64,000 nt of DNA from Candidatus Culexarchaeum nevadense. GTDB taxonomy: Archaea > Thermoproteota > Methanomethylicia > Culexarchaeales > Culexarchaeaceae. This document shows, one piece after another, positions 17,790-30,630 of this stretch; position 1 is the stretch's first letter; each line of letters opens with the position of its first letter. The translations under genes and the position numbers were made by a program. The notes below the pieces were generated by a model. The model was not told where the DNA came from. It saw nothing but the letters and a program-made list of their open reading frames with translations, and did not search any database. The stretch spans positions 1,101 to 65,100 of the forward strand of contig JANZKA010000003.1 of assembly GCA_025060975.1 (NCBI GenBank). Direction: 5' to 3'.

Positions 17790-17851
17790 ACCTCCACGTC
17801 AAATTCGTAACATTAATGTTATAACTATATACAGTATAAAACTTTTATGAT

Positions 17852-19282
17852 TTAAAAGACCGTATTGTGCAGTATTTCATTCACAACATTAGATTTAACT
17901 TCCCCAATAACATAATGTATAAATTCATAGAGACGCTCAGATATTACGCTAGATCTAAGTGCATTATCAAGAATCTCTAAATCCAGTACTTTAATTTCAC
18001 AATTCGGTTTAATACATACATCTACTGCTAAATCAATATACCTCAATCTGCCAGGATAGATTTCCACAGGAGTATTTATGTTCACGTAAGCTCCAATAAA
18101 TTTGCCATCACTAGAATAGTATTTTGAAACATAATACCAATCACCAAATCTTATTGTAGTTAAAATCTTATCCCCAACTTTCCTAGCAACATTTAAACCA
18201 TCATAGATACCTGGAGATTTAACTCTCCTAACAATTTCCAGTCCACCATCAAAAACTCTAACAAATTCAATATTGCCGAGCAGTACAACTTCACCATTAA
18301 GTTTAACGTGCTCCAAGAACTTTATACTTCCAATAAACTTACGTTTAAAATGTTCAAGCTCAGAAACCATGCTCTCAACATTAACCCCAAGTTTCATTGC
18401 CTCCTCAATTTTGTCAACGAGATTAGACTGCAATTTACCGAGAGATTTGAAGTAGTGATGTGAACTCACAGTTGGAGTAACCTTCCTCCTAATATCATCT
18501 AAAACAATTTTGGAATCATGGGGGAATAATACGTTCATAAGCGAGTACCCTTCAACCAGTAAGCTCCAAACAGGGGAATTCTGCAAAGAACTCTGCAATT
18601 CCTCATATTTGCGAATTAAATTTGAAATCTCATTTAAAATATCCTCCTTAGATGCACTTTTAAATGAAGACCTAAATATTACACCGAACCCTTCTGGGAG
18701 TATATCATAGTAGGATTTCAGATCATCATCCACAACACCTTTAATACGAAGCCTCCTACTAAGCTTCACCCCCTCACCTCTAAATAGAACTACATGTTCC
18801 CCAGCCAACCCTATACGTGTAGTCAATATAGGTTTACCAAAAACCACTGAAATCTTATCCACTTGAACAATAACTTCATCACCAATCTTTAAAGATTCAT
18901 CATGAAGTTTTAAAGTCCCAATAAGCCCATCCTCTATTGAGACGTATGCAATCCCTTTAACTTTGTCAATAGCTTCAACTCTACCCTTATAAATTCCCCT
19001 AACACTATATGATTCAACATTTAAAATTGCATCAAAAAGATATTTATGTATAATCTTCCTAATTTCATCCACAAGCTTCCTTGAAGCAAGAATGTGAACC
19101 CCATACTTATCCTCACGATCAAAAACATCAATATCGTAAGGCATAAACTCAGCTTCTTCATCAATATTAAACCTATCCTCAGCTATCTTTGATGGTTGAA
19201 CAACCCTATAACCTTCATCAATAAAAATCTTTGAGAGAGCAGTAGAATATATCCCTCTAACTCTAACTCTAATGGGATTCAT
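17852..19282 (-). CDS. FAU-1-type RNA-binding protein / RNase E/G-like ribonuclease
   Basis: The N-terminus VRVRGIYSTALSKIFIDEGYRVVQPS closely resembles archaeal FAU-1 N-termini. About 475 aa with an S1-like region. The call rests on recalled family features, not a search. Confidence 0.5.
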   Translation of the reverse strand: MNPIRVRVRGIYSTALSKIFIDEGYRVVQPSKIAEDRFNIDEEAEFMPYDIDVFDREDKYGVHILASRKLVDEIRKIIHKYLFDAILNVESYSVRGIYKGRVEAIDKVKGIAYVSIEDGLIGTLKLHDESLKIGDEVIVQVDKISVVFGKPILTTRIGLAGEHVVLFRGEGVKLSRRLRIKGVVDDDLKSYYDILPEGFGVIFRSSFKSASKEDILNEISNLIRKYEELQSSLQNSPVWSLLVEGYSLMNVLFPHDSKIVLDDIRRKVTPTVSSHHYFKSLGKLQSNLVDKIEEAMKLGVNVESMVSELEHFKRKFIGSIKFLEHVKLNGEVVLLGNIEFVRVFDGGLEIVRRVKSPGIYDGLNVARKVGDKILTTIRFGDWYYVSKYYSSDGKFIGAYVNINTPVEIYPGRLRYIDLAVDVCIKPNCEIKVLDLEILDNALRSSVISERLYEFIHYVIGEVKSNVVNEILHNTVF

Positions 19283-19408
19283 GACGCTAAATCACCCATA
19301 CCATCAAACCTAAATATAAGTGGCTTTGACCCCCCATATCTCAATATTAGAATTATCTAACTCCACTAATTAAGATAGAGCTATAAAAAGTTATAAGATT
19401 TAATGAAC

Positions 19409-21574
19409 TCAGAATATCCTAAATATTATGAGGATTATTAGCAATATTATACCTAAAACCATTCCCATAATGTTAAATGATGAAACGCCAGTTTGAATTC
19501 TCCTAAAAGCTTGGGAAAACGATGCAAAGGCATATGCAATCGTATAGTTTAATCCATCCAAAACAGGTTTCTCAAAGTATCTATAGACTACACCACTAAG
19601 CTTTACAATGGAGTTAGCAAGAATGTAATTGAATGCATCAATAACAGCCTTCTCAAAATTCCTAAATAGAATCAAACTTCCATTTATCAGAGAATAGACG
19701 AATAGACGATAATACGTTGGATTAATATACCATCTATTGTAGAGGAAATTGTATAACCCCTTCAAACCATGTTTCTCCACAAACTCTGCAGGATCCACTT
19801 TTCTAGATATGTAAAGGTAATATGCAGGTAAACCTCCAATCACCAACATACAAGCAGTAATGGTTGTTGTAATCAATTGCATGGGAATACCACTATGAGA
19901 TTCCACTGCACCATAAACCATAATCGAAAACTTGACTTCATGATGTAATATGTGCATTGATGGTTCAAGGAATTCATGCATGAAATGCTCAAATAATGGA
20001 CCTACAAAGCCTAATACAATCGTGGCAGCAGCCAATATAGTGTATGGAACCCACATAACCTTTGAAACTTCATGTACATGATGACCTTCATGCTCAAGCT
20101 CCTCCAAATGCTCACTTTTAGATCCAAGGAAAGTTATTGCAATCATACGTAGACTATAGAAGAATGTTATTGCAGCCGTAACTGCTGCTAAAGCCAACAA
20201 AAAGTATTGCCCAGAAATCATGCATGCTGTGAAAACAACCTCTTTACTCCAGAAACCACTTAATGGAGGTATACCTGAAAGAGATAATGCACCTACAAGC
20301 ATCGTAGCGAAGGTTATTGGCATATCCCTCCTAATACCACCCATATCAAACATATTGGTACTCTCACATGCATGTATAACTGCTCCAGCAGCCATAAATA
20401 GGAGAGCTTTAAATATTGCATGACTAGCTAGATGGAATATACCTGCCACAAATCCAGTGGATGGATCCATAGCTAATCCACCAGCACCTAAACCAAGCAT
20501 CATATAACCAATCTGCGAAATAGTTGAGTAAGCTAAAACCTTCTTCAACTCCCTACTAACCGTAGCTTGAGTAGCAGCTAAAAAGGCTGTAAATGCACCA
20601 ATCCAAGCCACAGTTAAGAAGAAGTTTTGGCGAGCTTGAAGGATTAAGCCTTCAATTGCGAGTCCATGAACATGCTCCACCGCAACTTCAAAACCATAGT
20701 ATATTGTTGGGAATAAGCGGGCTACAAGATATACTCCAGCCTTAACCATTGTTGCAGCATGTATTAAAGCTGAAACTGATGTTGGACCAGCCATAGCTTC
20801 TGGAAGCCATTCATGAAGTGGGAATTGTGCAGATTTACCAATAGGACCCCCAAACAATAATATTGTAACCGGAACTATTAAGCCAAGCTTGGCAAGCTCA
20901 ATTATCCACTCATGATTTACCTGAAGATCAAGGAAATTGAAAGTTCCAGATATGGAGAATATTATGAATGAAGCTATCATTAGACATATATCACCAATCT
21001 TTGTGGTTATAAATGCCTTCATACCAGCATGTGATGGTGGAATATCACCAATCCAACGCTTCCTCTCATCACTATAGTAGAATCCTATAAGCTGATAACT
21101 GCATAATCCAACACCTTCCCATCCAAATAACATTTGTAAAATGTTATCTGACATAACTAGTAGGAGCATGTTTCCAATAAAGAAGTTCATGAAGAACCAG
21201 TATCTAGTTAACCCCTCTTCACCATGCATATAACCCAAACTATAAACCATAATTAGAAATGATATCCAGGCCACGATGAGCCCCATAAAAGTACTCAGGG
21301 GATCTATAAGCACCCCCACATCAAGGTAGAAGCCCGGAACAACAAACCATTTAACACGCCAATCAACTGGGGGATGAACATAACCTACTCCGGGAACATA
21401 AACTTTACCAGACAATACATATGAAAAATTGAGTGTAGCCATTAAAGCCGCTAGAAGTGAACATAAAACTGCAAAGTAATCCCTAACTTTTTCACCTAAA
21501 CGAGCTATTAAAGGTGTAAGTATCGCACCAACAATTGGTATTATCCAAACAAGCCAAGGGGAATAGTACAACAT
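19409..21574 (-). CDS. complex-I-type large antiporter subunit, NuoL-like (with long C-terminal extension)
   Basis: 721 aa, NuoL/MrpA-like TM core plus a C-terminal amphipathic/TM extension. Confidence 0.85.
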   Translation of the reverse strand: MLYYSPWLVWIIPIVGAILTPLIARLGEKVRDYFAVLCSLLAALMATLNFSYVLSGKVYVPGVGYVHPPVDWRVKWFVVPGFYLDVGVLIDPLSTFMGLIVAWISFLIMVYSLGYMHGEEGLTRYWFFMNFFIGNMLLLVMSDNILQMLFGWEGVGLCSYQLIGFYYSDERKRWIGDIPPSHAGMKAFITTKIGDICLMIASFIIFSISGTFNFLDLQVNHEWIIELAKLGLIVPVTILLFGGPIGKSAQFPLHEWLPEAMAGPTSVSALIHAATMVKAGVYLVARLFPTIYYGFEVAVEHVHGLAIEGLILQARQNFFLTVAWIGAFTAFLAATQATVSRELKKVLAYSTISQIGYMMLGLGAGGLAMDPSTGFVAGIFHLASHAIFKALLFMAAGAVIHACESTNMFDMGGIRRDMPITFATMLVGALSLSGIPPLSGFWSKEVVFTACMISGQYFLLALAAVTAAITFFYSLRMIAITFLGSKSEHLEELEHEGHHVHEVSKVMWVPYTILAAATIVLGFVGPLFEHFMHEFLEPSMHILHHEVKFSIMVYGAVESHSGIPMQLITTTITACMLVIGGLPAYYLYISRKVDPAEFVEKHGLKGLYNFLYNRWYINPTYYRLFVYSLINGSLILFRNFEKAVIDAFNYILANSIVKLSGVVYRYFEKPVLDGLNYTIAYAFASFSQAFRRIQTGVSSFNIMGMVLGIILLIILIIFRIF

Positions 21575-21684
21575 AACCCCTCACCAAACAAGCATCAATT
21601 AAACTAACAAAATTAGTTACTTATGAACATTATAAAAAGATAACGGTTAAAAATTGAGGAGGAAATTCATTTAAGTGAAGACTT

Positions 21685-22206
21685 ATGATCGAAGAAGACT
21701 TATATGTAGAGCCAACGGAAAAGGTTTTAAATGCCATTAAAACTGCCATGGAAACCATTGGGAGAGAGAATTTCATTATCAGAGTAAAAGTTGAAAGCAC
21801 TAAAATTGATGATTGGATGAAACGTGCAGAGTATGTACCGATAAGAGTGATATATGAGGCATGCAAGATAAACATGGAAAACAATAAACCATACAATTCA
21901 ATTCAAAAAGTTGTGGAAGGCGCAAAGATCATAATTAAAAGTAAAGGGGGAATGAGAGAAGAAGCGAGAATTGAAAGGAAAGCAACAATTGAGGAGATGA
22001 GGAGAGAGAGGATCGTGTTCAGATACATGATGACTAAAAGCATAATACTACTACTAACAATGATACCATTAATCGTTCTAGGTTACTTCCTTGGAAGAAT
22101 GATAAGTGAATTCTATGCTGGAATAGGGATGACAATAGGAGTTTTCATATGGCTAATAATTATAACAGTATATCTACTGACAAAAAAGGATAAGTATAAG
22201 ATGTAA
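21685..22206 (+). CDS. hypothetical protein with two C-terminal TM helices
   Basis: ORF only. Confidence 0.3.
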   Translation: MIEEDLYVEPTEKVLNAIKTAMETIGRENFIIRVKVESTKIDDWMKRAEYVPIRVIYEACKINMENNKPYNSIQKVVEGAKIIIKSKGGMREEARIERKATIEEMRRERIVFRYMMTKSIILLLTMIPLIVLGYFLGRMISEFYAGIGMTIGVFIWLIIITVYLLTKKDKYKM

Positions 22207-22246
22207 ATAAAAGAGTTCAAAAGAGTTCTGTAAAGGTTGATGAGAA

Positions 22247-23296
22247 TTGCTTGGAATATTGAGGTATGGATTTATAAACACTAAGATTAGGGGGATGAAA
22301 AGGGAGTTCATAGCATATGAGCAATACCTTAAACTTGCAGAATTAAGCTATGATGAGTTAATAGATGAATTGAAAAGAACACCATATGGACATGCGTTTA
22401 GGGGGATGTATAAAACTCCAACACCAATTGAATTGGAAAAAATACTTTTAGAAGAATTGACGAAAAGCTATATTAAAGTATTGAAGTGGCTTCCAACAGA
22501 AGCCATGAAGGTTATAGCACTACATATGATGAAATATGAAGCTGAAAACATAAAAGCACTGCTAAGATTAAAAACACTCAATGCTGAAGTAGAAAGATTA
22601 AAGCAACATATAACACCAATACCTCTAGGGTTAAGTGTAGAGGAATACGTAAAGGTTTATGAAGAATCAAAGGATATAGAGGAAGTTATAGGAAAATTGA
22701 TGGAATTAGGATTACCAATACCATTAAATGAAGCTATAGAAGGTGGAGTGAAGGATATAAAGATAATTGAAGCAAGAATAGAAAGAATGACGTATAGGGA
22801 ATTGATGAATGAAGCTAAGAAGCTCGATGGGAAAAGCTTGAAAAGCATCAGGGAACTGTTAGGATTAGAAATAGATTTAACAAACGTAAAGAACGTTTTA
22901 AGAGCAAAGAAGATTGGAATAGATTGGAGCGAACTAGAAGAATACGTAATAACACCAACATATAAAGTTAAGTTAAAGAAGCTTAAGAGTGCATTTGAAA
23001 AGGGAAATTATAATGAAGCATTAAGGGAAGCATTAAGTAAGGATTACCCAAACCTACTGAATAGAGGATTAGAAGCATTGGCGAAGGGTGAATTAGACGC
23101 TCTGGAAAAATTGTTCAGCAAAGAGATATACAAGAATTATAAGAGGGTTTGGGTGTCTGGATTCAGATACGACATATCACCAGTACTAGCATACTTAACA
23201 CGGAAAATGATTGAAATGAAGAATCTAAAGGTCATAGCATATGGGAAGAGCTTTGAACTGCCAAAAGAAAAGATAATGGAGGAAATTATAATTTAA
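22247..23296 (+). CDS. atpC: A-type (A1A0) ATP synthase subunit C (V-ATPase d homologue)
   Basis: The N-terminal YGFINTKIRGMK...L...TPYG pattern corresponds to the conserved Y-x-N-A-R-V-R-x-M-K start of the subunit C/d family. 349 aa. Confidence 0.6.
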   Translation: MLGILRYGFINTKIRGMKREFIAYEQYLKLAELSYDELIDELKRTPYGHAFRGMYKTPTPIELEKILLEELTKSYIKVLKWLPTEAMKVIALHMMKYEAENIKALLRLKTLNAEVERLKQHITPIPLGLSVEEYVKVYEESKDIEEVIGKLMELGLPIPLNEAIEGGVKDIKIIEARIERMTYRELMNEAKKLDGKSLKSIRELLGLEIDLTNVKNVLRAKKIGIDWSELEEYVITPTYKVKLKKLKSAFEKGNYNEALREALSKDYPNLLNRGLEALAKGELDALEKLFSKEIYKNYKRVWVSGFRYDISPVLAYLTRKMIEMKNLKVIAYGKSFELPKEKIMEEIII

Positions 23297-23317
23297 AATT
23301 GTTGTCATGTTAACAGC

Positions 23318-23980
23318 TCAATCGAAGAATCTCCTAATAGCGTTCTTACCCCTCTGAATAGAGTTCTCAATTCTCTCCCTAATCATGCCTTTAGAACCAT
23401 CTATTCTAATCTTATAATTGCCCAAATTAGACTTCCAACGTATAAAAGCATTCTTAAATCCCTTAAATCTAAGGGTCAACCTCCCATAAACGCCAGTATA
23501 CCAAAATCTGAGTTCAATCATTGAAAGAGGGTAGGATTTAGAGTAAAGTATTGGTGGTGTGGAAAACTCGTCTGCAAGGAAAGCCTTAAAACGGGCTAGT
23601 GAATTTACAATGCCACCTAAAGCTCTGGTTAAATAATACTTTACCATTAGAATTTTTGAGGGCTTAACTTTCAGAATGTAGCTTGGTTTATCAATCATAC
23701 CATATATTTTTGTCAAACTCTCCTCGGGTCTGAAGCCAGGTCTATGTATACGCTTAATATTGTCATGAATAGCATTTTCAACCTTGTCGTGAAGTCCAGA
23801 CTTAACCTCCTCAATCCTACTATGAAGTTCAGCCCTAACGTAGGCAAACCGCTTAATACCGATTTTAGCCTTTAAAATAGATTGCCTATACCTTCTCTTA
23901 GTGGATTTAGCTTTTCTCTCCAGCTCTTCAATTTCAGTTTTAAAGCATTCTATTGAAGACATGGATGCCGCCATATACAC
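23318..23980 (-). CDS. hypothetical protein, possibly A-ATPase peripheral-stalk subunit (E-like)
   Basis: N-terminal coiled coil and C-terminal globular part. Immediately downstream of atpK on the same strand. No motif-level support. Confidence 0.25.
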   Translation of the reverse strand: MYMAASMSSIECFKTEIEELERKAKSTKRRYRQSILKAKIGIKRFAYVRAELHSRIEEVKSGLHDKVENAIHDNIKRIHRPGFRPEESLTKIYGMIDKPSYILKVKPSKILMVKYYLTRALGGIVNSLARFKAFLADEFSTPPILYSKSYPLSMIELRFWYTGVYGRLTLRFKGFKNAFIRWKSNLGNYKIRIDGSKGMIRERIENSIQRGKNAIRRFFD

Positions 23981-24430
23981 TTATATTGTACCTATCAGCA
24001 TAATGGATATTAGCAGTCCATAGATTGCTAAAGCCTCAGCTAGAACTACTGCTAATAGTGTTCTCGTAACAATTTCAGGTTTTTCAACTCCAGCTCCAGC
24101 CATAGCTGAGCCTGTATAGGCTATGGCTATTGAAGCCATTAAACCACATACAGCCATTATAGCACCCGCCGTTAAACTTTTCATGGCAGCTTCATAGGAT
24201 GTCACAATTATGGATAGTTTTCCTATTAGCATTATTGATGTTAATAGCCCATAGATTCCTATAGCCTCAGCCAATACCACTGCAAGAAGCAATCTCGTAA
24301 CTATCTCCGGGCGTTCAGTTCCAGCTCCAGCCATTGATATTCCTGCAGTTATAATTCCATAGGCTGCTCCAGCTATGGGCACACAACTTGATAGCAAAAC
24401 GCCTAATAGGCCTGTGATTACCTGGTCCAT
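23981..24430 (-). CDS. atpK: A-type ATP synthase proteolipid subunit K (c subunit, duplicated hairpin)
   Basis: Two tandem hairpins, each ending in ERPEIVTR..L.AVVLAEA.(A/G)IYGL with the conserved carboxylate. 149 aa. Confidence 0.8.
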   Translation of the reverse strand: MDQVITGLLGVLLSSCVPIAGAAYGIITAGISMAGAGTERPEIVTRLLLAVVLAEAIGIYGLLTSIMLIGKLSIIVTSYEAAMKSLTAGAIMAVCGLMASIAIAYTGSAMAGAGVEKPEIVTRTLLAVVLAEALAIYGLLISIMLIGTI

Positions 24431-24496
24431 ACGCCATATACCCCCAGCATTGAAGCTATACTATCATGATATAAACAACTTATAAATCTTATGAGG

Positions 24497-26140
24497 TTAA
24501 TGAATCCCTAGAGGTTTATATTCTCTTCCTCCACCACGGAAATATTTGAATCCAAATTCAACCCACGTTAACCTTAAGACGTGTGTGAAGGATACTAGTC
24601 CCTCTAAAGCCATTACAAGGAATATTGTTCCTATGGCTAGTACAATGTATCCAAGCATGCCTAAAGCTGGAGCTGCTGAAGAGAGGAGGTGACTTAACAT
24701 TCCATGTGAAAGGGATAATGCAAGTACACGTCCATAGGAAACTGTGTGGGAGAGGGAGCTTATTGCAGCTTCAAATGCATGGGCGAATCCATCTATTGGA
24801 CCTTCAGTTATCATCATTCCCACGAGCATTAAGACTATTGGTAGAATTACTAATGGTACTGTTAATGTTAATCCAGACATCCACTTTCCAATATCAAACT
24901 TGTATACGAATAGTCCAAGGTACATTGCTCCAAGATAGAACCACAACCAACATGCTGATCCAAAGAATGCCTTCCTATATTCACCTTCAAGTATATCGTT
25001 TATTATGCTTAATATTAAGCCAATACTTATATGAATAATTCCAACCATTAATGAGAGTTTAAACATCTTCATAGGCTCCTTGAGTGGGCTGAAGACGTGA
25101 CCTATACCTGGAATATGCTCAAATATGAACCCTAAGGGTGGTTCATGTATGTGGAATCCAAATATTTCACCAAACATTAACCCCCCAATGATCGCCATAA
25201 TTCCACATAGTATGTATAATTCAGCTCCAGACATCAGTAAACCTATCATCTCACTGCTACTCTTAAACCCTCTACGCTTATATATGTAGAGTAGTACTCC
25301 AAATAATGCTAGTAGTAGGCCGTGACCAACATCTGCAAAAGCTAATCCGAATAATATTGGGAAAGTTATGCTCACTATGAGTGTTGGATTAACTTCATGT
25401 GTTGATGGAATATCGTAAGTTTTTATCAGAGATTCAAAAGGTTTCAGGAATTTTGGAGATCTAGAGAGGAATGGTGGATGATCATGTTTGGATGGTGGTG
25501 AAACTAATACCATTGACGAGTTTTCCGTAACCTTTTGAACTGTTTCAACTATATCATCAACCTTATCTGGAGGAACCCATCCAACCATATATGAGAAGAA
25601 GTTTGAATGAAAGACATTTCCATCCCTATCCAACAAGACTCTGAGTATATTGATAGCTTCCGCTATGAGGGATTCATAGTTCGGGAAGAATTCACTAATT
25701 TTACTCTTAAATTCCGCAAACCCCCCTTCACCACTTTCAAGTATCTGTGAAAACTCTTTGACTATGGATTCAAGACGTGATACATTGTCTTCAATGAATT
25801 TTAAATGAGACCTGTTTAGAAGCTCCTCATTAAATGTAAAGCTAGCTACATTGATTTTAAGTGTGTCAGCCAAATTCAAGTATCTCTTCAGTAACCCATT
25901 GAATTTAACTGTTTCAGGATGCTCTTTAACCAAAGATTTCACATCAACATTTTCATCAACAGAATACTCCTCCCTAATTAATTCAACGAACTCCTCATCA
26001 TGCCACCATTCATCTAGATGTAAAACCTTCAATTTTATAAGTGCCAACTTAACATCATAATAGCAGCTTTTTGGAACCACTATCCTAACTTTAGCCATCT
26101 CCACAGGTTTAAACATACTTGACATGCACAGCCACTCCAT
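24497..26140 (-). CDS. atpI: A-type ATP synthase subunit I (V-ATPase a homologue)
   Basis: N-terminal soluble domain followed by TM helices. The C-terminal VSYGRVLALSLSHGMLS matches the conserved SY-LR-WALSLAH arginine motif of a/I subunits. Confidence 0.75.
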   Translation of the reverse strand: MEWLCMSSMFKPVEMAKVRIVVPKSCYYDVKLALIKLKVLHLDEWWHDEEFVELIREEYSVDENVDVKSLVKEHPETVKFNGLLKRYLNLADTLKINVASFTFNEELLNRSHLKFIEDNVSRLESIVKEFSQILESGEGGFAEFKSKISEFFPNYESLIAEAINILRVLLDRDGNVFHSNFFSYMVGWVPPDKVDDIVETVQKVTENSSMVLVSPPSKHDHPPFLSRSPKFLKPFESLIKTYDIPSTHEVNPTLIVSITFPILFGLAFADVGHGLLLALFGVLLYIYKRRGFKSSSEMIGLLMSGAELYILCGIMAIIGGLMFGEIFGFHIHEPPLGFIFEHIPGIGHVFSPLKEPMKMFKLSLMVGIIHISIGLILSIINDILEGEYRKAFFGSACWLWFYLGAMYLGLFVYKFDIGKWMSGLTLTVPLVILPIVLMLVGMMITEGPIDGFAHAFEAAISSLSHTVSYGRVLALSLSHGMLSHLLSSAAPALGMLGYIVLAIGTIFLVMALEGLVSFTHVLRLTWVEFGFKYFRGGGREYKPLGIH

Positions 26141-26198
26141 CCACCTTGAGAAAACCCAGAAAAATATGTTTATAAAAATATTATTAACTTTTCGAAAA

Positions 26199-27707
26199 TC
26201 AGAACCTTAACACACTTGTAATATACACTAACCTTTGGAAAGTAAAGTGAGCCGCCAACTCAGCAACATAAGATAATGGTTGAGGCCATACACCGAAAAT
26301 TATGCACAGCAATGATAGGATTACAAGTGATGATGTGATTAATGGTGGAGATTCATGGGCTTTCATAACGGCTTCAATTGGCTTCCTAAACAATACTTGT
26401 ATTACACGAACATAATACACGACTCCAACCGCGCTATTCAATAACCCTATAAATGTTAATAGATATGCTTGAGCATCTATCGCCGCAGCAAATATCAAGT
26501 ATTTACTTATAAAACCATTCAAGAAGGGCATTCCAGCTAGGGATAAGAGGGCTATTGCAAAGGATACACCAGTAACTGGCATCCTCCTACCAATACCAGT
26601 AAGCTCATCAATATTCCTAGTTCCAAGCACATGTATTATTGATCCAGCACAAAGGAATGCCAATCCCTTCATCAATGCATGATTGAAGAAGTGAACTATA
26701 CCTGCTAAGAGGCCAAACTCAGTTCCAAGTGATAACGCCAATACCAGGTAGCCTATCTGCGCTATACTGGAATAAGCCAATAAACGCTTAATATCCTTTT
26801 GAACTAAGGCGAGGATATTCCCAACAGTCATAGTCAAAACTGAGAGAAGAGCAAGCATGGGTCTAAAATCCACAGTGGGTATTGCTATTAGAGTATATGA
26901 TGCTCTTATAATGGCGTAAACCCCAGTCTTTATAACCACACCTGAAAGCATAGCACTTATGGGGCTTGGAGCAGCTGGATGAGCATCTGGAAGCCATGAA
27001 TGAAATGGAACTATTGCCGCTTTAACCCCAAATCCAACTAAAAGCAATATGAAAATGGCGTACAATAGTATCGATGGGCTAGCACCAGTTAACGATGATG
27101 CTATACGTGCAAAACTTAGGGAGCCAGTTAAACCATAGAGGAGGGACATGGAGAACAATACTAGCGCTGAACCAGCAGCACTCATTAGCAAATATTTGAA
27201 ACCAGCCTCCACAGGCTCCCATAAATGCTTCCTAAATCCAACAAGACAATAGGAGGATATGCTCATCAACTCCCAGAATACGTATAGTGTTAGGAAATCT
27301 CCTGCAAGCGTCACACCAACCATACCACAAACCATTAATAAGAGTAGTGAATAGTATGAGGGGAGACCAGTATCATGAGACATATAATCTATGGAATGCA
27401 ATGTAGATATCAATCCTAGAAATATGAATCCAATGGAAAATGTAAAGCTAAGCCAATCCAAAACAATGAATCCAGCAACATACTCGCCAATACTGGGATA
27501 CAATGAGACTACTATAACTGGATTTTTGTTCAATAAGTTCATAAGCCTAAAGCAAGCCATAAAGGATATTATGAAGCCAAATAACGCCCATGCACTAACT
27601 AGATTTCTAACTCTACCCCTCTCACATATAAAACCTATTATAGGTGTGAGGATACCAAATAATGCTAATATTATCATTGGGGATAGAATCTCCATCAATT
27701 CTACCAC
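26199..27707 (-). CDS. complex-I-type antiporter-like subunit (NuoM-like)
   Basis: 502 aa, 14 TM helices. Overlaps the nuoK-like stop by 7 nt, suggesting translational coupling. Confidence 0.8.
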   Translation of the reverse strand: MVELMEILSPMIILALFGILTPIIGFICERGRVRNLVSAWALFGFIISFMACFRLMNLLNKNPVIVVSLYPSIGEYVAGFIVLDWLSFTFSIGFIFLGLISTLHSIDYMSHDTGLPSYYSLLLLMVCGMVGVTLAGDFLTLYVFWELMSISSYCLVGFRKHLWEPVEAGFKYLLMSAAGSALVLFSMSLLYGLTGSLSFARIASSLTGASPSILLYAIFILLLVGFGVKAAIVPFHSWLPDAHPAAPSPISAMLSGVVIKTGVYAIIRASYTLIAIPTVDFRPMLALLSVLTMTVGNILALVQKDIKRLLAYSSIAQIGYLVLALSLGTEFGLLAGIVHFFNHALMKGLAFLCAGSIIHVLGTRNIDELTGIGRRMPVTGVSFAIALLSLAGMPFLNGFISKYLIFAAAIDAQAYLLTFIGLLNSAVGVVYYVRVIQVLFRKPIEAVMKAHESPPLITSSLVILSLLCIIFGVWPQPLSYVAELAAHFTFQRLVYITSVLRF

Positions 27708-28018
27708 CTCAACCTCCTAAGCTCCCTAATATCAAGAGTCTTATAATGCCTATAAGCATTAATTACGAATGCAAGTGCAATACCAATTAAACATGCTTCA
27801 ACAGATATGGCTATTATGGCAGTAACATGAAGTATTGGGTCTACAAAGCCATACATCCTAAAATACGCGAAGTTAACCAAGCTGAGTATTGCTGAACTGA
27901 ACATTATCTCGAGAGCCATAACCATTTTGATCATATTCCTCTTAACCATTAAACCATATATGCCCACGGCCAATAATACTCCAGAAGTTGCTATGAAAGT
28001 GTATGGTTCAATGGGCAC
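27701..28018 (-). CDS. NuoK-like (MrpC/MbhG-like) small membrane subunit
   Basis: 105 aa, 3 TM helices with a conserved Glu in TM2. Overlaps the upstream gene by 11 nt. Confidence 0.7.
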   Translation of the reverse strand: MPIEPYTFIATSGVLLAVGIYGLMVKRNMIKMVMALEIMFSSAILSLVNFAYFRMYGFVDPILHVTAIIAISVEACLIGIALAFVINAYRHYKTLDIRELRRLRW

Positions 28019-28295
28019 TATGCCTCACCTCTTCACGTAAAAGTGCAATAACACCCATAGCAGAAGCAAACAATACGATTGCCTGTATCAAAACATCTAT
28101 TCCACAATACCCCCACAACAAGTCACTAATATTCATTGCAAGATTATAAAATGACTCATCCGGTTTAACCAGTATCCTCGGAGCTTCATCATAAGCAAAT
28201 AAACCAACACCTGAAAAACCATAAACAAGTAATTGAGCTAAAAGGAAGGCTAATAGCAATCCCAAAAACAATCCAAAAATGTCAATAGCCTTCAA
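28008..28295 (-). CDS. NuoJ-like C-terminal half (MbhE-like small membrane subunit)
   Basis: TTG start at 28295 immediately after the TAA of the preceding ORF in the same frame. Hydrophobic NuoJ C-terminal-type sequence. Confidence 0.5.
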   Translation of the reverse strand: MKAIDIFGLFLGLLLAFLLAQLLVYGFSGVGLFAYDEAPRILVKPDESFYNLAMNISDLLWGYCGIDVLIQAIVLFASAMGVIALLREEVRHSAH

Positions 28296-28556
28296 TTAAT
28301 CCACCTCCACCTTTCCAGTCAACATTAAAGCTATTATGAATAAAACTGTGACTGCACCAGCTAAAACAGCCAACTGAAAAACCCCGACTAGAGGTGCTGA
28401 TAGATAAAAGAAGGCTAATGCTAAAACCACACTAAAAAGACATAGAGCCATAATGGAATGCATAATCCTCTTAAATTCCAAAGTTAAAACAGCCAAAACA
28501 ACAGCTGAAACCCCCAAAACTACACTGAGAATATCAACACTCAAACCCATCACCAA
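28296..28556 (-). CDS. NuoJ-like N-terminal half (MbhD-like small membrane subunit)
   Basis: 86 aa, 3 TM helices. Ends in a TAA followed directly by the in-frame TTG of the next gene. Confidence 0.5.
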   Translation of the reverse strand: MVMGLSVDILSVVLGVSAVVLAVLTLEFKRIMHSIMALCLFSVVLALAFFYLSAPLVGVFQLAVLAGAVTVLFIIALMLTGKVEVD

Positions 28557-28668
28557 CCATAACGGCGCAAAACTGTTATGTGTAATTATTGTATGTTGAT
28601 TAAGCTTTAAAGTTTTCTAAAGGTAAAATGTTATAACCATGTGGAGACTTATGTTCTAGTGGATAAAA

Positions 28669-29343
28669 TTGTTTGAATGGTTAACGGATGTAATGATGAA
28701 AATAGCGTTAAACTATGGGTATATAGGAGCTCTAGTAGTATCAATACTTGGAAATTTCCTACCATTTATCCCCATACCATACTTAATCGCAATATACTAT
28801 ATGGCTTCATACATGCCAGTAGACCCCATAATTCTTGGGATAGCTGCTGGAATTGGGGGGGCAATAGGTAAAAGCGTAATATACCTACTGGGATTCGAGG
28901 GGGGTAAAATCATAATAACTGAAGGGAAAAGGAGGCAAATTGAGAAGTTTAAGGAGATGCTTGGAAAATACGGGGCAATAGCAGTATTCTTCGTGACAGT
29001 TACACCATCACCAGACGATATAGTGATAATACCACTTGGATTAGTGAGGTATAGCTTCATAAAATTCTTCATAGCAACAGCACTTGGAAAAATATTGCTA
29101 AGTATAGCAGTAGCATCATTCGGAAGATACTTCACAGAACAGCTAAACATAGTCTTTGGGGAGGGGAGTATATATGGGATATTAATATCAGTAATTGTCC
29201 TATTGATAATGACCTGGATTATAGTGAAAATAAATTGGATAAAGGTTGCAGAAATAATGGATACTAGTGGATTGAGAGGGTTAATTGGAATTATAGTTAA
29301 GGGGAGATGGAGGGAGCTATTATCAAGTAATGAGAATGGATGA
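28669..29343 (+). CDS. DedA / SNARE-associated (TVP38) family membrane protein
   Basis: Typical DedA re-entrant loop motifs (G.LPFIPIPYL, VTPSPDDIVIIPLG). 224 aa. Opposite strand to the surrounding membrane-complex genes. Confidence 0.6.
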   Translation: MFEWLTDVMMKIALNYGYIGALVVSILGNFLPFIPIPYLIAIYYMASYMPVDPIILGIAAGIGGAIGKSVIYLLGFEGGKIIITEGKRRQIEKFKEMLGKYGAIAVFFVTVTPSPDDIVIIPLGLVRYSFIKFFIATALGKILLSIAVASFGRYFTEQLNIVFGEGSIYGILISVIVLLIMTWIIVKINWIKVAEIMDTSGLRGLIGIIVKGRWRELLSSNENG

Positions 29344-29346
29344 TTG

Positions 29347-30630
29347 CTAACGATTAATGAAATCCCTCAAATCCATAGAAACCCCAAACATGTTTATCTT
29401 CCCATAAACACCATCAAATCCAGGATTTATAGAATACTTACCATACCTCAAACTCTTAATGTATGATGCTATGACAGGATTAGATGCCTTCGCAATATCA
29501 TCTATTGAAGCATCAAGTAAGACATTGAATTCAGAACCAAATTTTGATACTAAATTAGCATATAAACTCCAAACTTTACCACTATTAAGCTTTGAAATAT
29601 CATCTTCACTAATACCCATACTGAAAGCTATGATAGTCTGTAGAGGTAGAACTTTAATGAATGGTATAGCGTTCTCTGGTTTAAACCCCCTCGGTCTATC
29701 AGCAAGTTCCTCAACCCTATCTTCAACCCCCTTAGTAAGCTTCCTACCACAAACTGGACATATATAATTAAGCTTCCTAGCCTCTTCCGGAGATAATGGA
29801 CCAACATTACAATTCCTATGACCAGACCAATGATACTTCCCATAAGCTGGATCAACCTCAATGGTCATTAGGAAACGCTTTGCATCTCTAGACTTTATGG
29901 CATCTATAAGCTCTAAATACTCCATTCTATCTAAATTAAATAGGCATGCCTCCCTACCAAGTCTAAATGGGTATGGAGAGTGGCTATCTGAGAAGCTTAA
30001 AATTGAGAATCTATGTAGTTGGCTAACCCGCCAATTCATTTCAGGATCACTACTTAAACCAGTTTCAATAGCATATATCTTGTCAACCATATCACCATAG
30101 CAATCCTCAATTCTATCAACACCACTAAAAGATCCAAACAAACTCCACCAAGGAGTCCAAATGTGGGCTGGAAATATAAAGCATGACTGCTCAACACCCA
30201 AAACTAAATCCACAAGTTCAGATGGATGCATATTGAAGACTGGACGACCATTAGATTCCACATCACCATAACGTGACAGGACATCTGAAAGCTGCTCAGC
30301 AACTTCAAGACTTGGCATTAAAATGACGTGATGAACCCTCCTAGATTTACCATTAAATTCGAAGACAGTTCCAACTTCACATTCAACAACAAATAGCACT
30401 TCAGGGTTAAGCCTATATGCATAGAATCCTCCACCAACATGTATAAGGTCATCCTTCAACTCCCTAAGCCAACGTGGATTTAAACAATCACCAGTTCCGA
30501 GGATCTTCAACCCTTTAATAAGAGCGTATGATACGAGGGTGGGGATATTCATCTTTTCACTTGATCCGCCACTATACTTAGAGTGTATGTGGAGATCAGC
30601 GTAAACCTTCATTCCAATAAACACTTCCAA
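29347..30630 (-). CDS. PHP-domain nuclease, endonuclease Q (EndoQ / TIGR00375)-like, with C-terminal C4 Zn finger
   Basis: The N-terminal ADLHIHSKYSGG...KGLKILGTGDCLNP PHP metal-binding start and CPVCGRK...C near the C-terminus match the EndoQ architecture (~425 aa). 427 aa. The call rests on recalled family features, not a search. Confidence 0.5.
   Translation of the reverse strand: MEVFIGMKVYADLHIHSKYSGGSSEKMNIPTLVSYALIKGLKILGTGDCLNPRWLRELKDDLIHVGGGFYAYRLNPEVLFVVECEVGTVFEFNGKSRRVHHVILMPSLEVAEQLSDVLSRYGDVESNGRPVFNMHPSELVDLVLGVEQSCFIFPAHIWTPWWSLFGSFSGVDRIEDCYGDMVDKIYAIETGLSSDPEMNWRVSQLHRFSILSFSDSHSPYPFRLGREACLFNLDRMEYLELIDAIKSRDAKRFLMTIEVDPAYGKYHWSGHRNCNVGPLSPEEARKLNYICPVCGRKLTKGVEDRVEELADRPRGFKPENAIPFIKVLPLQTIIAFSMGISEDDISKLNSGKVWSLYANLVSKFGSEFNVLLDASIDDIAKASNPVIASYIKSLRYGKYSINPGFDGVYGKINMFGVSMDLRDFINR

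What the first reader, a model, noticed from the sequence alone, without database searches (positions are those of the whole stretch)
17852..30630. Respiratory/hydrogenase operon interleaved with A-ATPase membrane subunits, a FAU-1 RNase, a PHP nuclease and DedA
Same-strand foreign genes sit between the core modules. A PHP/EndoQ-like nuclease (29347..30630) follows nuoI. atpI, atpK and an E-like gene follow the M-like antiporter (23318..26140). A FAU-1-type RNase (17852..19282) lies between the L-like and N-like antiporter genes. DedA (28669..29343), atpC (22247..23296) and a small membrane protein sit on the opposite strand inside the locus. Co-clustering of the ion-translocating rotor/stator genes of the ATP synthase (a and c subunits) with the ion-pumping arm of a hydrogenase/complex-I is unusual. 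It may mean a shared coupling ion and co-regulation, or genomic scrambling in this lineage.
Basis: seen in the sequence. Interest (0 to 1): 0.55.

Follow-up and report, generated by a model that had tools for sequence, protein, structure and literature searches.

The report
ATP-synthase membrane genes nested in hydrogenase cluster
In this hot-spring archaeon (Ca. Culexarchaeum nevadense) the membrane-part genes of the ATP synthase sit inside the gene cluster for an ion-pumping hydrogenase, and similar nesting occurs in two other distant archaeal groups, so it looks like an old linkage of the two halves of a minimal energy-conserving chain, not random scrambling.

Summary
The gene order is real. 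The window matches Ca. Culexarchaeum nevadense GBS-70-058. The "nuo" genes encode an 11-subunit, Fpo-like group-4g [NiFe]-hydrogenase (Hfo type); both NiFe-binding motifs are intact. It is split into hABCDHI / hJ1J2KM / hL / hN. Between these lie EndoQ, DedA, atpI-atpK-X, Y-atpC and FAU-1. Published gene tables list one atpK and one atpC per MAG where annotated. The A1 head genes lie elsewhere. The "E-like" gene X is not E-like. X and Y are uncharacterised proteins that sit inside complete atp clusters in Bathyarchaeia.

The order is identical across Culexarchaeia, down to 47% AtpI identity. atp genes are also nested in Hfo-like clusters in a Bathyarchaeia clade and in Borrarchaeia (Asgard). 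From the AtpI side, 28 of 79 loci are linked to complex-I-like genes. From the hydrogenase side, only 4 of 40 are.

Conserved BRE/TATA-like blocks precede hA, hJ1, atpK, hL and hN, and less clearly atpI. This predicts several transcription units, not one operon. The c-subunit is a duplicated hairpin with two glutamates and no Na+ ligands, so H+ coupling is predicted.

Best reading: a relic of an older atp-in-hydrogenase supercluster. I found no paper describing it. Interest is moderate.

The parts
34053..34391 (-). hA (NuoA-like membrane subunit), first gene of unit hABCDHI
   Evidence: Weak NCBIfam NuoA hits. The orthologue is marked Oxidored_q4 in L001 and L004.
34426..34439 (-). BRE/TATA-like block AAAACTTATAAATT upstream of hA (predicted promoter)
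   Evidence: Conserved in the window, L001, L004 and L006, while the flanking intergenic sequence diverges.
33623..34048 (-). hB, hydrogenase small subunit (NuoB-like)
   Evidence: Pfam Oxidored_q6, E 8.2e-33. Sequence read.
33149..33619 (-). hC (NuoC-like, 30 kDa)
   Evidence: Pfam Complex1_30kDa, E 3.7e-34.
31972..33150 (-). hD, [NiFe]-hydrogenase large subunit (group 4g, Hfo type). The mechanical ORF runs to 33207.
   Evidence: Pfam Complex1_49kDa plus NiFeSe_Hases. L1 motif RICGICNVPH and L2 motif DPCYCCTER are present. A gene on the same contig, at the position expected for hD, is listed as the group 4g catalytic subunit in Kohtz 2022 Suppl. 2.
31007..31972 (-). hH (NuoH-like)
   Evidence: Pfam NADHdh, E 3.7e-92.
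30672..31019 (-). hI (NuoI-like 2x[4Fe-4S] ferredoxin subunit). The ORF runs to 31088; orthologues are 114-120 aa.
   Evidence: Pfam Fer4 families. Orthologue lengths.
29347..30612 (-). Endonuclease Q homologue (PHP-type DNA repair nuclease). The likely start is the ATG at 30612.
   Evidence: TIGR00375, E 1.3e-65. PfuEndoQ 5zb8, E 3.5e-65 over residues 9-414. The orthologue is marked PF27218 MJ0043_C.
28669..29343 (+). DedA/VTT-domain membrane protein, convergent with EndoQ and divergent from hJ1
   Evidence: Pfam VTT_dom, E 3.3e-15. Weak UptA similarity.
28604..28616 (-). BRE/TATA-like block AAAACTTTAAAGC in the 112-nt hJ1/DedA divergent spacer (predicted bidirectional promoter)
   Evidence: Conserved in the window, L001, L004 and L006.
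28296..28556 (-). hJ1, N-terminal half of NuoJ (MbhD-like)
   Evidence: Pfam Oxidored_q3 and MbhD.
28008..28295 (-). hJ2, probable C-terminal half of NuoJ (MbhE/DUF4040-like)
   Evidence: Weak NCBIfam PRK12504 hit. A separate ORF is conserved in all Culexarchaeia loci.
27701..28018 (-). hK (NuoK-like)
   Evidence: Pfam Oxidored_q2, E 1.3e-20.
26199..27707 (-). hM, antiporter-like subunit (NuoM/N-like)
   Evidence: Pfam Proton_antipo_M, E 4.1e-77.
26168..26181 (-). TATA-like block ATATTTTTATAAAC in the 58-nt hM-atpI spacer (predicted internal promoter)
   Evidence: Identical in L001 apart from one upstream base, partly kept in L004, not aligned in L006 or L011.
24497..26140 (-). atpI, A-type ATP synthase subunit I/a (short, 547 aa)
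   Evidence: Pfam V_ATPase_I, E 2.6e-47. The motif LRLTWVEF contains an invariant Arg523. 91% identical to the YNP-WB-040 protein.
24478..24490 (-). BRE/TATA-like block AAGATTTATAAGT in the 66-nt atpI-atpK spacer (predicted promoter)
   Evidence: The TTTATAA core is kept in four of five Culexarchaeia loci, and L006 has CTTATAA.
23981..24430 (-). atpK, c/proteolipid subunit with a duplicated hairpin (4 TMH) and a Glu in both TM2 and TM4
   Evidence: Pfam ATP-synt_C with two stretches. Alignments to V-type proteolipids and to E. hirae NtpK.
23318..23974 (-). X, an uncharacterised basic helical protein, 6 nt downstream of atpK
   Evidence: No Pfam or NCBIfam hit. 14 homologues, all unnamed or given an uninformative name. 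Positional homologues follow atpK in many Bathyarchaeia. hhalign probability to them is 77%, and to AtpE or AtpH below 1%. The AF2 model is all-helical with pLDDT 53.
22247..23296 (+). atpC, A-type ATP synthase subunit C (d-like rotor socket)
   Evidence: Pfam vATP-synt_AC39, E 5.5e-53. TIGR02923 AhaC.
21685..22206 (+). Y, a membrane protein with an XRE-HTH-like N-domain and a C-terminal 2-TM glycine-zipper hairpin, 40 nt upstream of atpC
   Evidence: No Pfam hit. Homologues lie inside or next to atp clusters in Bathyarchaeia, and short 2-TM forms in Asgard loci. Short forms give sub-threshold PF09527 hits. The AF2 N-domain has pLDDT around 90. Foldseek top hits are XRE regulators, but E is above 1. 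Only 22 cluster representatives were found in 1.84 billion proteins.
21628..21639 (-). TATA-like block CTTTTTATAATG in the 110-nt hL/Y divergent spacer (predicted bidirectional promoter)
   Evidence: Conserved in the window, L001, L004 and L006.
19409..21574 (-). hL, NuoL-like antiporter subunit with a C-terminal extension (721 aa)
   Evidence: Pfam Proton_antipo_M and Proton_antipo_N, plus a weak Proton_antipo_C hit.
17852..19282 (-). FAU-1-type RNA-binding protein / RNase E/G-like protein
   Evidence: Pfam DUF402 (E 1.9e-16) plus RNase_E_G (E 6.9e-08). TIGR00757 partial hit.
17833..17845 (-). BRE/TATA-like block AAAGTTTTATACT in the 62-nt FAU-1-hN spacer (predicted promoter)
   Evidence: Conserved in the window, L001 and L004.
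16290..17789 (-). hN, antiporter-like subunit (NuoN/M-like), last gene of the cluster
   Evidence: Pfam Proton_antipo_M, E 3.4e-73. The flanking genes are housekeeping genes.

Best explanation
The locus is a conserved chemiosmotic gene neighbourhood in Ca. Culexarchaeia.

It encodes an Hfo-type enzyme: an Fpo/complex-I-like, 11-subunit, group 4g [NiFe]-hydrogenase. This enzyme is predicted to oxidise reduced ferredoxin, evolve H2 and pump ions through a complex-I-like membrane arm (A, H, J, K and three antiporter-like subunits).

Nested inside it, between hM and hL, are membrane-sector genes of the A-type ATP synthase. These are stator a = atpI, c-ring = atpK, rotor socket = atpC, and two uncharacterised companions, X and Y. 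Gene tables list one atpK and one atpC per MAG where annotated. The c-ring is predicted to be H+-coupled.

The A1 head and stalk genes lie elsewhere in the genome (atpH-E-F-A-B in one operon where recovered, atpD separately).

The arrangement is best explained as a relic. In an ancestor, a whole atp cluster (H-E | I-K-X | C-Y-D-B-A-F, as still seen in Bathyarchaeia) sat inside or next to the hydrogenase cluster. In Culexarchaeia the A1 genes later moved away. Unrelated housekeeping genes (EndoQ, DedA, FAU-1; also TtuA and RtcA in the marine family) settled at the module boundaries.

The modules are predicted to start from their own BRE/TATA promoters. The locus is therefore a set of neighbouring transcription units, not one operon.

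Shown: gene identities, motifs, synteny and its distribution. Inferred: ion specificity, promoters, direction of evolution, and that linkage reflects the functional pairing of ion pump and ATP synthase.
For: Identity of the parts:
- Pfam, NCBIfam and PDB matches.
- NiFe L1 and L2 motifs.
- Invariant stator Arg in AtpI.
- Glu in both c hairpins, and none of the NtpK Na+ ligands T64, Q65, Q110 or T140 conserved.

Source and genome context:
- Y is 100% identical to a protein of MAG GBS-70-058.
- Kohtz 2022 Suppl. 2 lists at most one atpK and one atpC per MAG. Their gene numbers sit next to the cluster-linked atpI and about 10 genes from the 4g catalytic subunit. atpA, B, E, F and D are on other contigs or far away.

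Conservation:
- The 20-gene order is identical in L001, L002, L004, L011, L012 and L089.
- It is the same, with extra insertions, in Ca. Culexmicrobium (L006, L013), where AtpI identity is only 47%.

Recurrence outside the class:
- 28 of 79 AtpI-anchored loci have complex-I-like genes within 5 kb of an atp gene, and 13 of 30 loci of at least 18 kb do. These are species-representative genomes.
- Bathyarchaeia L108 reads hABCDHIJK | E | I-K | C-Y-D-B. L032 and L034 continue ...A-F | hL-hN.
- L029 (Bathyarchaeia) shows the same atp cluster beside an hKJHA | hBCDI block.
- L023 is sandwiched between hN and hM.
- Borrarchaeum L113 reads hK-hL-hN-hM-atpI-atpC-atpK-hD(NiFe)-hH-hI-hA-hB, all on one strand.
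- X and Y lie inside complete atp clusters in Bathyarchaeia.

Promoters: conserved TATA-like blocks in spacers of 58 nt or more. Genes within a module overlap or are at most 6 nt apart.

Physiology: Kohtz et al. independently proposed the pairing of the 4g hydrogenase with the ATP synthase.
Against: - From the hydrogenase side, only 4 of 40 contigs of at least 9 kb carrying related large subunits have atp genes nearby. Linkage is therefore restricted to some clades.
- Published Hfo clusters are described as an Fpo-like gene cluster, and the passages I read mention no atp genes in them (Loh et al. 2021).
- Within Culexarchaeia the housekeeping flank (ProRS, S26e) is equally conserved. Strict order inside the class may simply reflect slow rearrangement.
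- Loci are phylogenetically non-independent, and the AtpI sample was chosen by similarity to this AtpI.
- Promoters are inferred from sequence footprints only, in AT-rich spacers where TATA-like strings are common.
- No transcript, protein or ion-specificity data exist.
Confidence: 0.6

Rival explanations
1. Neutral genomic hitch-hiking. An ancestral hydrogenase cluster was broken by chance insertions of unrelated genes, atp genes among them. The order persists in Culexarchaeia only because this genome region rearranges slowly. The linkage has no functional or selective meaning.
For: - Clearly unrelated genes (EndoQ, DedA, FAU-1; TtuA and RtcA in L006) are interleaved in the same way.
- Each module seems to have its own promoter.
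- The housekeeping flanks ProRS and S26e are conserved too.
- 36 of 40 related hydrogenase clusters lack atp genes.
Against: - atp-hydrogenase adjacency recurs in different gene orders in three distant lineages.
- It is seen in 28 of 79 AtpI-anchored loci. My rough estimate for random placement in 1.5-3 Mb genomes is only a few percent.
- No other inserted gene shows comparable recurrence. The one exception is EndoQ, which appears in two Asgard loci.
Confidence: 0.22
2. True polycistronic coupling. hJ1-hJ2-hK-hM-atpI-atpK-X (and hL-FAU1-hN) are read through as single mRNAs. The membrane arm of the hydrogenase and the Ao sector would then be made together, in fixed proportion, at the same membrane site.
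For: - The genes are on the same strand with short spacers of 58 and 66 nt, and no long T-run follows hM or atpI.
- In Borrarchaeum L113 the Ao genes are tightly packed on one strand between hM and hD.
Against: - Conserved BRE/TATA-like blocks sit in exactly these spacers.
- In Ca. Culexmicrobium an opposite-strand TtuA gene separates hM from atpI.
- atpC-Y is on the opposite strand.
Confidence: 0.15
3. Physical or assembly coupling. AtpI, AtpK and AtpC, with X and/or Y, would form a complex with the hydrogenase membrane arm or be assembled on it. Alternatively they would act as an ion path for it independently of the A1 head.
For: - In Culexarchaeia and in Borrarchaeia only Ao-sector genes (I, K, C), not A1 genes, are nested in the cluster.
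- Two conserved unknown proteins accompany them.
- Culexarchaeia carry a second atpI paralogue.
Against: - No fusion proteins were found.
- Gene tables list no second atpK or atpC per MAG, and the separately encoded A1 head needs them.
- In Bathyarchaeia the whole atp cluster, including A1 genes and X and Y, is nested.
- No precedent is known to me.
Confidence: 0.04

Closest known systems
Hfo, the Fpo-like 11-subunit group 4g [NiFe]-hydrogenase of Bathy-6 Bathyarchaeia, Ca. Methanomethylicus and Pyrodictium (Loh et al. 2021, PMC7886697)
   Same: - Homologues of NuoA, B, C, D, H, I, J, K, L, M and N, with no NuoEFG or FpoFO genes in the cluster.
- The large subunit keeps the NiFe L1 and L2 motifs.
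- Three antiporter-like subunits instead of the Mrp-type Na+ module of Mbh.
- Classified as 4g in the lineage paper.
   Different: - Here the cluster is cut into four blocks (ABCDHI / J1J2KM / L / N), with ATP-synthase and housekeeping genes in between.
- NuoJ is split into two ORFs, as MbhD and MbhE are in Mbh.
- No biochemical data exist for any 4g enzyme.
The Pyrococcus furiosus 'simple respiratory system': membrane-bound hydrogenase Mbh plus A1Ao ATP synthase. This rests on established knowledge and is cited as the analogy by Kohtz et al. 2022.
   Same: The predicted physiology is the same: ferredoxin to H+ (H2) with ion pumping, and the gradient is then used by an A-type ATP synthase.
   Different: - In Thermococcales, mbh and atp are separate operons (my own knowledge, not tested here).
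- Mbh carries an Mrp-type Na+ module, and its ATP synthase is Na+-coupled.
- Here the membrane arm is complex-I-like, the c-subunit lacks Na+ ligands, and the two gene sets are physically interleaved.
Complete A-type atp clusters of Bathyarchaeia with the same AtpI family (for example L046, L043, L053: H-E | I-K-X | C-D-B-A-F)
   Same: - The same short AtpI (about 545 aa).
- A duplicated c-subunit of about 150 aa.
- X directly after atpK, and Y next to atpC or atpI.
   Different: Culexarchaeia keep only the central I-K-X / C-Y piece at this site. H-E-F-A-B and D lie elsewhere.
Borrarchaeia (Asgard) hydrogenase cluster, L113 and L068
   Same: Only Ao genes (atpI, atpC, atpK) lie inside an Hfo-like cluster whose large subunit keeps its NiFe motifs.
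   Different: - A different order (I-C-K between hM and hD), all on one strand.
- No detectable X, and a short 2-TM form of Y.
- A longer AtpI (688 aa).
AtpZ / 'ATPase_gene1' (PF09527) small membrane proteins of bacterial F-type atp operons
   Same: The C-terminal hairpin of Y, and the 70-100-aa Y-like ORFs next to atpI, are 2-TM glycine-zipper proteins encoded in atp clusters. Four of the six short forms give PF09527 hits that cover almost the whole model.
   Different: - All those hits are below Pfam's threshold (E 0.014-0.1).
- Culexarchaeia and Bathyarchaeia Y carries an extra XRE-HTH-like N-domain.
- No functional data exist.

Membership tests
Group 4 (4g, Hfo-type) energy-converting [NiFe]-hydrogenase | Large subunit with the L1 (RxCGxCxxxH) and L2 (DPCxxCxxR/H) NiFe-binding motifs | tested here: met
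   RICGICNVPH and DPCYCCTER are present in window 31972-33150. They are conserved in all Culexarchaeia orthologues.
Group 4 (4g, Hfo-type) energy-converting [NiFe]-hydrogenase | Eleven Nuo/Fpo-core homologues (A, B, C, D, H, I, J, K, L, M, N) and no NuoEFG or FpoFO input module in the cluster | tested here: met
   All eleven were found, with J split into two ORFs. The interleaved and flanking genes are not EFG or FO homologues. The rest of the genome was not searched.
Group 4 (4g, Hfo-type) energy-converting [NiFe]-hydrogenase | Phylogenetic placement of the large subunit in subgroup 4g (HydDB) | not tested
   Taken from Kohtz et al. 2022 Suppl. 2. It lists a gene on the atpI/atpC contig of the same MAG, nine genes before the cluster-linked atpI, as the group 4g catalytic subunit. 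No tree was built here.
Group 4 (4g, Hfo-type) energy-converting [NiFe]-hydrogenase | Ferredoxin-dependent H2 evolution or uptake coupled to ion translocation | not testable with these tools
   No 4g enzyme has been characterised biochemically (Loh et al. 2021).
A-type (A1Ao) ATP synthase, membrane sector | Subunit I/a with the conserved stator arginine in the C-terminal membrane domain | tested here: met
   Pfam V_ATPase_I, E 2.6e-47. R523 in HVLRLTWVEF is invariant across 14 family members.
A-type (A1Ao) ATP synthase, membrane sector | c/K proteolipid with an ion-binding carboxylate in the C-terminal helix of each hairpin | tested here: met
   E55 (VVLAEAIGIYG) and E132 (VVLAEALAIYG). E132 aligns with E139 of NtpK.
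A-type (A1Ao) ATP synthase, membrane sector | Subunit C (d) present, and A1 partner genes (A, B, D, E, F, H) present in the genome | tested here: met
   atpC: vATP-synt_AC39, E 5.5e-53. A1 genes are absent from the window. A, B, D, E and F are listed on another contig of the same MAG; atpH is not listed for this MAG (Kohtz Suppl. 2).
Na+-coupled c-subunit (E. hirae NtpK type) | Na+ ligands equivalent to T64, Q65, Q110 and a Thr/Ser next to the carboxylate | tested here: not met
   The aligned positions are A56, I57, a Gly-rich stretch without Gln, and A133. H+ coupling is therefore inferred.
Endonuclease Q (TIGR00375 / PHP-type) | Full-length similarity to a characterised EndoQ, including the N-terminal PHP metal-binding motif | tested here: met
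   PfuEndoQ 5zb8, E 3.5e-65, query residues 9-414 aligned to 3-382. The DLHIHS motif is aligned. The TIGR00375 score of 222 bits is below the equivalog cut-off of 326.6.
FAU-1 family RNA-binding / RNase E/G-like protein | A protein of about 470 aa with an RNase E/G-like central region and a C-terminal DUF402 domain | tested here: met
   476 aa. RNase_E_G covers residues 159-253 and DUF402 covers residues 372-436. Activity was not tested.
DedA / VTT-domain membrane proteins | VTT domain above the Pfam threshold | tested here: met
   PF09335, 57.1 bits against a cut-off of 33.9.
   hhalign of the X profiles against AtpE and AtpH profiles gives probability of 0.3% or less, while the E-versus-H control gives 95%. 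There is no vATP-synt_E Pfam hit. X coexists with separate E and H genes in Bathyarchaeia clusters.
AtpZ / ATPase_gene1 (PF09527), for Y | Pfam match above the gathering score | tested here: inconclusive
   Window Y has no hit. Four of six short Y-like ORFs hit PF09527 at E 0.014-0.1, at 13-16 bits against a cut-off of 26.6.

The most novel reading that the evidence does not exclude
The nesting of only the Ao genes (atpI, atpK, atpC) in Hfo-like clusters of two phyla, together with the two conserved unknown proteins, reflects a mechanistic link and not just co-inheritance. X would be an undescribed subunit or assembly factor of this TACK-type ATP synthase. Y would be a membrane-anchored HTH protein that senses the membrane state and controls the divergent hL/Y-atpC promoter. 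The Ao sector and the hydrogenase membrane arm would be assembled or regulated as one unit.
Probability: 0.12. Interest if true: 0.75.

Novelty: new variant of a known kind. Interest (0 to 1): 0.5.

Why it matters
Ferredoxin-dependent, ion-pumping hydrogenases plus a rotary ATP synthase are regarded as the simplest and possibly oldest chemiosmotic chain.

Their genes are physically nested in three deep archaeal lineages: Culexarchaeia, a Bathyarchaeia clade and Borrarchaeia (Asgard). This is a concrete genomic trace of that pairing. It offers a marker for reconstructing how complex-I-like enzymes and ATP synthases were inherited together.

It also flags two conserved but unannotated proteins, X and Y, as candidates for new components or regulators of the ATP synthase in TACK archaea.

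For annotation, it warns that Culexarchaeia 'nuo operons' are really hydrogenase clusters broken into several transcription units.

Tried and rejected
- Exact look-up of the window's AtpI found nothing. The source was identified later through Y, which is 100% identical to a GBS-70-058 protein.
- 'Extra, headless Ao module' was rejected. The MAG tables list no second atpK or atpC per MAG.
- 'X is subunit E or H' was rejected by profile-profile comparison. A first attempt with freely iterated E and H HMMs drifted into AtpI coiled-coil regions and was discarded.
- The structure of X had pLDDT 53, so it was not used for a fold search.
- The fold search with Y gave XRE-family regulators as top hits, but all with E above 1. 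I treat this as a hint only.
- A Culexarchaeia X HMM did not reach the Bathyarchaeia positional homologues. hhalign gives only 77% probability, so homology of X across classes remains probable, not proven.
- 'Complex I / quinone reductase' was rejected because the NiFe motifs are intact.
- 'Na+-coupled ATP synthase' was rejected on ligand positions.
- Five literature searches for a description of atp genes inside hydrogenase or nuo clusters found none. The library lacks most subscription journals, so absence is not proof.
- tRNA and Rfam scans of the window found only one tRNA-Arg, which is unrelated.
- The sigma-70 promoter scanner was not used because it does not apply to archaea.

Full report
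**1. What is in the sequence**

They also show that the locus extends from 16290 to 34391. Read on the minus strand, the order is:

- hA, hB, hC, hD, hH, hI
- EndoQ, DedA(+)
- hJ1, hJ2, hK, hM
- atpI, atpK, X
- atpC(+), Y(+)
- hL, FAU-1, hN

Genes within a module overlap or are at most 6 nt apart. Modules are separated by spacers of 58-126 nt, or by strand switches. The flanks are housekeeping genes: ProRS, S26e, LysRS, AdoMet decarboxylase, phosphoglucomutase and CofE. No atpA, B, D, E or F is present in the 64 kb window (tblastn).

**2. Organism and published context**

- The closest AtpI (91%) comes from 'archaeon YNP-WB-040'.
- ORF Y is 100% identical to a protein of MAG GBS-70-058.
- Both are Culexarchaeia MAGs of Kohtz et al. 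2022 (PMC9723716). GBS-70-058 is the type material of Ca. Culexarchaeum nevadense, with 37% G+C. The window has a matching composition.
- Where they were recovered, the table shows atpH-E-F-A-B as one run of adjacent genes elsewhere, and atpD separately.
- It lists at most one atpC and one atpK per MAG, and up to three atpI entries. atpC, atpK and one atpI have gene numbers next to each other and about 10 genes from the hydrogenase subunit. For example, they are genes 117, 119, 120 and 129 of one scaffold. In YNP-WB-040, atpC is gene 24, atpI gene 27 and the 4g subunit gene 36.
- The passages I read propose that the 4g hydrogenase and the ATP synthase conserve energy together, as in Pyrococcus furiosus. 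They do not mention the interleaved arrangement.

**3. The 'nuo' genes encode a hydrogenase**

- The large subunit keeps both NiFe-binding motifs, RICGICNVPH and DPCYCCTER. So do all its Culexarchaeia orthologues.
- The subunits are homologues of NuoA, B, C, D, H, I, J, K, L, M and N, with no EFG or FpoFO module.
- There are three antiporter-like subunits, including a 721-aa L-like protein.
- This matches the 'Hfo' Fpo-like 11-subunit hydrogenase defined by Loh et al. 2021 for Bathy-6, Ca. Methanomethylicus and Pyrodictium.
- NuoJ is split into an MbhD-like and a DUF4040/MbhE-like ORF. This is an Mbh-like trait.

**4. The ATP-synthase genes**

- AtpI (547 aa) belongs to a family of short I subunits. 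It retains the invariant stator arginine in LRLTWVEF.
- AtpK is a duplicated hairpin. Its best solved relatives are eukaryotic V-type 16-kDa proteolipids (E 1.8e-16). Unlike them, it has a glutamate in both TM2 and TM4.
- I aligned AtpK to E. hirae NtpK, whose sequence I verified against 2bl2. The Na+ ligands T64, Q65, Q110 and the Thr after E139 correspond to Ala, Ile, a Gly-rich stretch and Ala. I therefore infer H+ coupling.
- atpC is a clear subunit C/d.

**5. X and Y**

X (23318-23974):
It has no Pfam or NCBIfam match.
- It has only 14 homologues, all unnamed or given an uninformative name.
- It shows no profile similarity to AtpE or AtpH: probability of 0.3% or less, against 95% for the E-versus-H control.
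- Its AF2 model is all-helical but of low confidence, pLDDT 53.
- A gene of similar size, charge and motifs follows atpK in many Bathyarchaeia atp clusters that also contain separate E and H genes. The shared motifs are an LK-S-TK helix and a PPS/PPI...S...W segment. hhalign between the two sets gives 77% probability.

Y (21685-22206):
- It has a confidently modelled N-domain (pLDDT about 90). The domain resembles XRE-type HTH domains, but Foldseek E-values are above 1.
- It also has a C-terminal 2-TM glycine-zipper hairpin.
- Y homologues lie between atpC and atpD, or directly before atpI, in Bathyarchaeia. Short forms containing only the hairpin lie beside atpI in Asgard loci.
- Four of the six short forms give sub-threshold hits to PF09527, the AtpZ-like family.
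- The family is rare: 22 cluster representatives in 1.84 billion proteins.

Both X and Y are therefore conserved, uncharacterised companions of this ATP-synthase type.

**6. Conservation of the arrangement**

- The complete 20-gene order, including EndoQ, DedA and FAU-1, is identical on independent contigs of Culexarchaeaceae: L001, L002, L004, L011, L012 and L089. AtpI identity ranges from 67% to 91%.
- It is retained in Ca. Culexmicrobium profundum (L006, L013; AtpI 47%, hD 77%). There, TtuA, RtcA and a second atpI are additionally inserted at module boundaries.
- The arrangement is therefore class-wide and is not scrambling specific to one genome.

**7. Beyond Culexarchaeia**

From the AtpI side:
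- I scanned species-representative genomes with an AtpI-family alignment and mapped window proteins by tblastn.
- 28 of 79 loci have complex-I-like genes within 5 kb of atp genes. Among loci of at least 18 kb, 13 of 30 do.
- By lineage, the linked loci number 4 of 5 in Culexarchaeia, 14 of 37 in Bathyarchaeia, 8 of 19 in Asgard, plus 2 others.
- My rough estimate for random placement in 1.5-3 Mb genomes is a few percent.

From the hydrogenase side:
- A metagenome scan with the large subunit found atp genes in only 4 of 40 contigs of at least 9 kb.
- Most of these related large-subunit clusters are therefore not linked to atp genes.

The linked cases are instructive:
- In a Bathyarchaeia clade, L108 reads hA-B-C-D-H-I-J-K | atpE | atpI-atpK | atpC-Y-atpD-atpB.
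- Its relatives L032 and L034 continue ...atpA-atpF | hL-hN.
- The relative L029 shows the same atp cluster beside an hKJHA | hBCDI block.
- In that clade the whole atp cluster lies between the K and L genes of a NiFe-motif-bearing hydrogenase.
- In L023 the atp genes are sandwiched between hN and hM.
- In Borrarchaeum (Asgard; L113, whose AtpI is 93% identical to that of L068), the order is hK-hL-hN-hM-atpI-atpC-atpK-hD(NiFe)-hH-hI-hA-hB, on one strand.
- The piece retained in Culexarchaeia (I-K-X / C-Y) is exactly the centre of the Bathyarchaeia atp cluster (H-E | I-K-X | C-Y-D-B-A-F).
- This fits loss, by relocation, of the A1 genes from an ancestral nested supercluster.

**8. Transcription units (in silico only)**

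- Most intermodule spacers contain a BRE/TATA-like block, and these blocks stay conserved across Culexarchaeia while the surrounding spacer diverges.
- The blocks are AAAACTTATAAAT before hA, AAAACTTTAAAGC in the hJ1/DedA spacer, a TTTATAA core before atpK, CTTTTTATAATG in the hL/Y spacer and AAAGTTTTATACT before hN. Less clearly, there is ATATTTTTATAAAC before atpI and TATA-like strings before EndoQ and FAU-1.
- atpK-X, Y-atpC and the genes inside each h block are too close together for internal promoters.
- I therefore predict about 8-10 units and not a single operon. Read-through cannot be excluded.

**9. Interpretation**

- The best-supported reading is a conserved neighbourhood that pairs a ferredoxin-oxidising, H2-evolving ion pump with the membrane sector of the ATP synthase that consumes the gradient.
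- It would be inherited from an older arrangement in which the entire atp cluster was nested in the hydrogenase cluster.
- EndoQ, DedA, FAU-1, TtuA and RtcA look like passengers at module boundaries.
- The main rival is neutral hitch-hiking. It is weakened by the recurrence of atp-hydrogenase nesting in three distant lineages with different gene orders.
- It is not excluded, because linkage is absent from most related hydrogenase clusters and the samples are phylogenetically non-independent.
- A physical Ao-hydrogenase coupling is possible, but nothing supports it directly.

**10. Novelty**

- The components are known: Hfo/4g hydrogenase, A-type ATP synthase, EndoQ, FAU-1 and DedA. The genes are listed in the lineage paper.
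- I found no paper describing the nested organisation, its recurrence in Bathyarchaeia and Borrarchaeia, or the X and Y families. The searchable library is limited to open-access papers and preprints.
- I rate it a new variant of a known kind, of moderate interest.

Noticed in passing
window 23318-23974; L009:12161-12721, L029:14189-14752, L046:11564-12097 and others: An unannotated family of basic, helical proteins of 170-255 aa (X) lies immediately downstream of atpK in Culexarchaeia and many Bathyarchaeia. Members share an LK-S-TK helix and a PPS/PPI...S...W motif. The family is unrelated to subunits E or H, and may be an undescribed ATP-synthase component or assembly factor.
   Followed up: partly
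window 21685-22206; L032:7903-8472, L009:8696-9355, short forms e.g. L007:9614-9895, L059:7281-7541: Protein Y combines an XRE-HTH-like soluble domain with a 2-TM glycine-zipper hairpin and is encoded inside atp clusters. Versions of 70-100 aa containing only the hairpin sit next to atpI in Asgard and Bathyarchaeia loci and give sub-threshold AtpZ (PF09527) hits. A membrane-anchored HTH protein beside a divergent promoter could be a regulator.
   Followed up: partly
window 28008-28556: NuoJ is split into two ORFs, one MbhD-like and one DUF4040/MbhE-like, in all Culexarchaeia loci. tblastn hits for both halves are also present in some Bathyarchaeia and Asgard loci. This is an Mbh-like trait in an otherwise complex-I-like membrane arm.
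   Followed up: partly
L052:9758-10915; L006:14667-16043: Culexarchaeia carry a second atpI paralogue. In Culexarchaeaceae it is a 385-aa orphan, shortened at the N-terminus, located next to a Rad50-like ATPase gene and a calcineurin-like (Metallophos) phosphoesterase gene. In Ca. Culexmicrobium it is a 458-aa copy inside the cluster. Several Bathyarchaeia loci also have two adjacent atpI genes (L020, L029).
   Followed up: partly
L007 (GCA_964460055.1) 2864-17283: One Bathyarchaeia MAG has a single atpH-E-F-A-B-D operon followed by two different I/K/C sets. One set has a duplicated 149-aa c-subunit and the other a single-hairpin 105-aa c-subunit. This suggests two alternative membrane sectors for one head.
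   Followed up: no
L021:12496-~13700 and L027:9750-~11000: An EndoQ homologue (39-41% identical) lies directly after, and convergent with, hJ1-hK-hM in two Asgard loci, about 4 kb from atpI-atpK-atpC. EndoQ-hydrogenase adjacency is therefore not unique to Culexarchaeia. This may be chance.
   Followed up: no
window 23981-24430: The c-subunit's best solved relatives are eukaryotic V-type 16-kDa proteolipids (E 1.8e-16), against 9.6e-05 for bacterial NtpK. Unlike the eukaryotic proteins, it keeps the carboxylate in both hairpins.
   Followed up: partly
L006:8949-9986 and 19114-20157: In Ca. Culexmicrobium, TtuA (tRNA thiolation) is inserted between hM and atpI, and RtcA (RNA 3'-phosphate cyclase) between hL and FAU-1. 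The same module boundaries repeatedly accept unrelated genes. RtcA next to FAU-1 makes an RNA-processing pair.
   Followed up: no
L101:6333-~7700: A FAU-1-like gene (31% identical) lies about 1.4 kb upstream of hB-hC-hD-hI of another 4g-like hydrogenase on a Guaymas Basin contig.
   Followed up: no
window 52023-52100: A single tRNA-Arg(CCG) is the only tRNA or Rfam-recognised RNA in the 64 kb window.
   Followed up: yes
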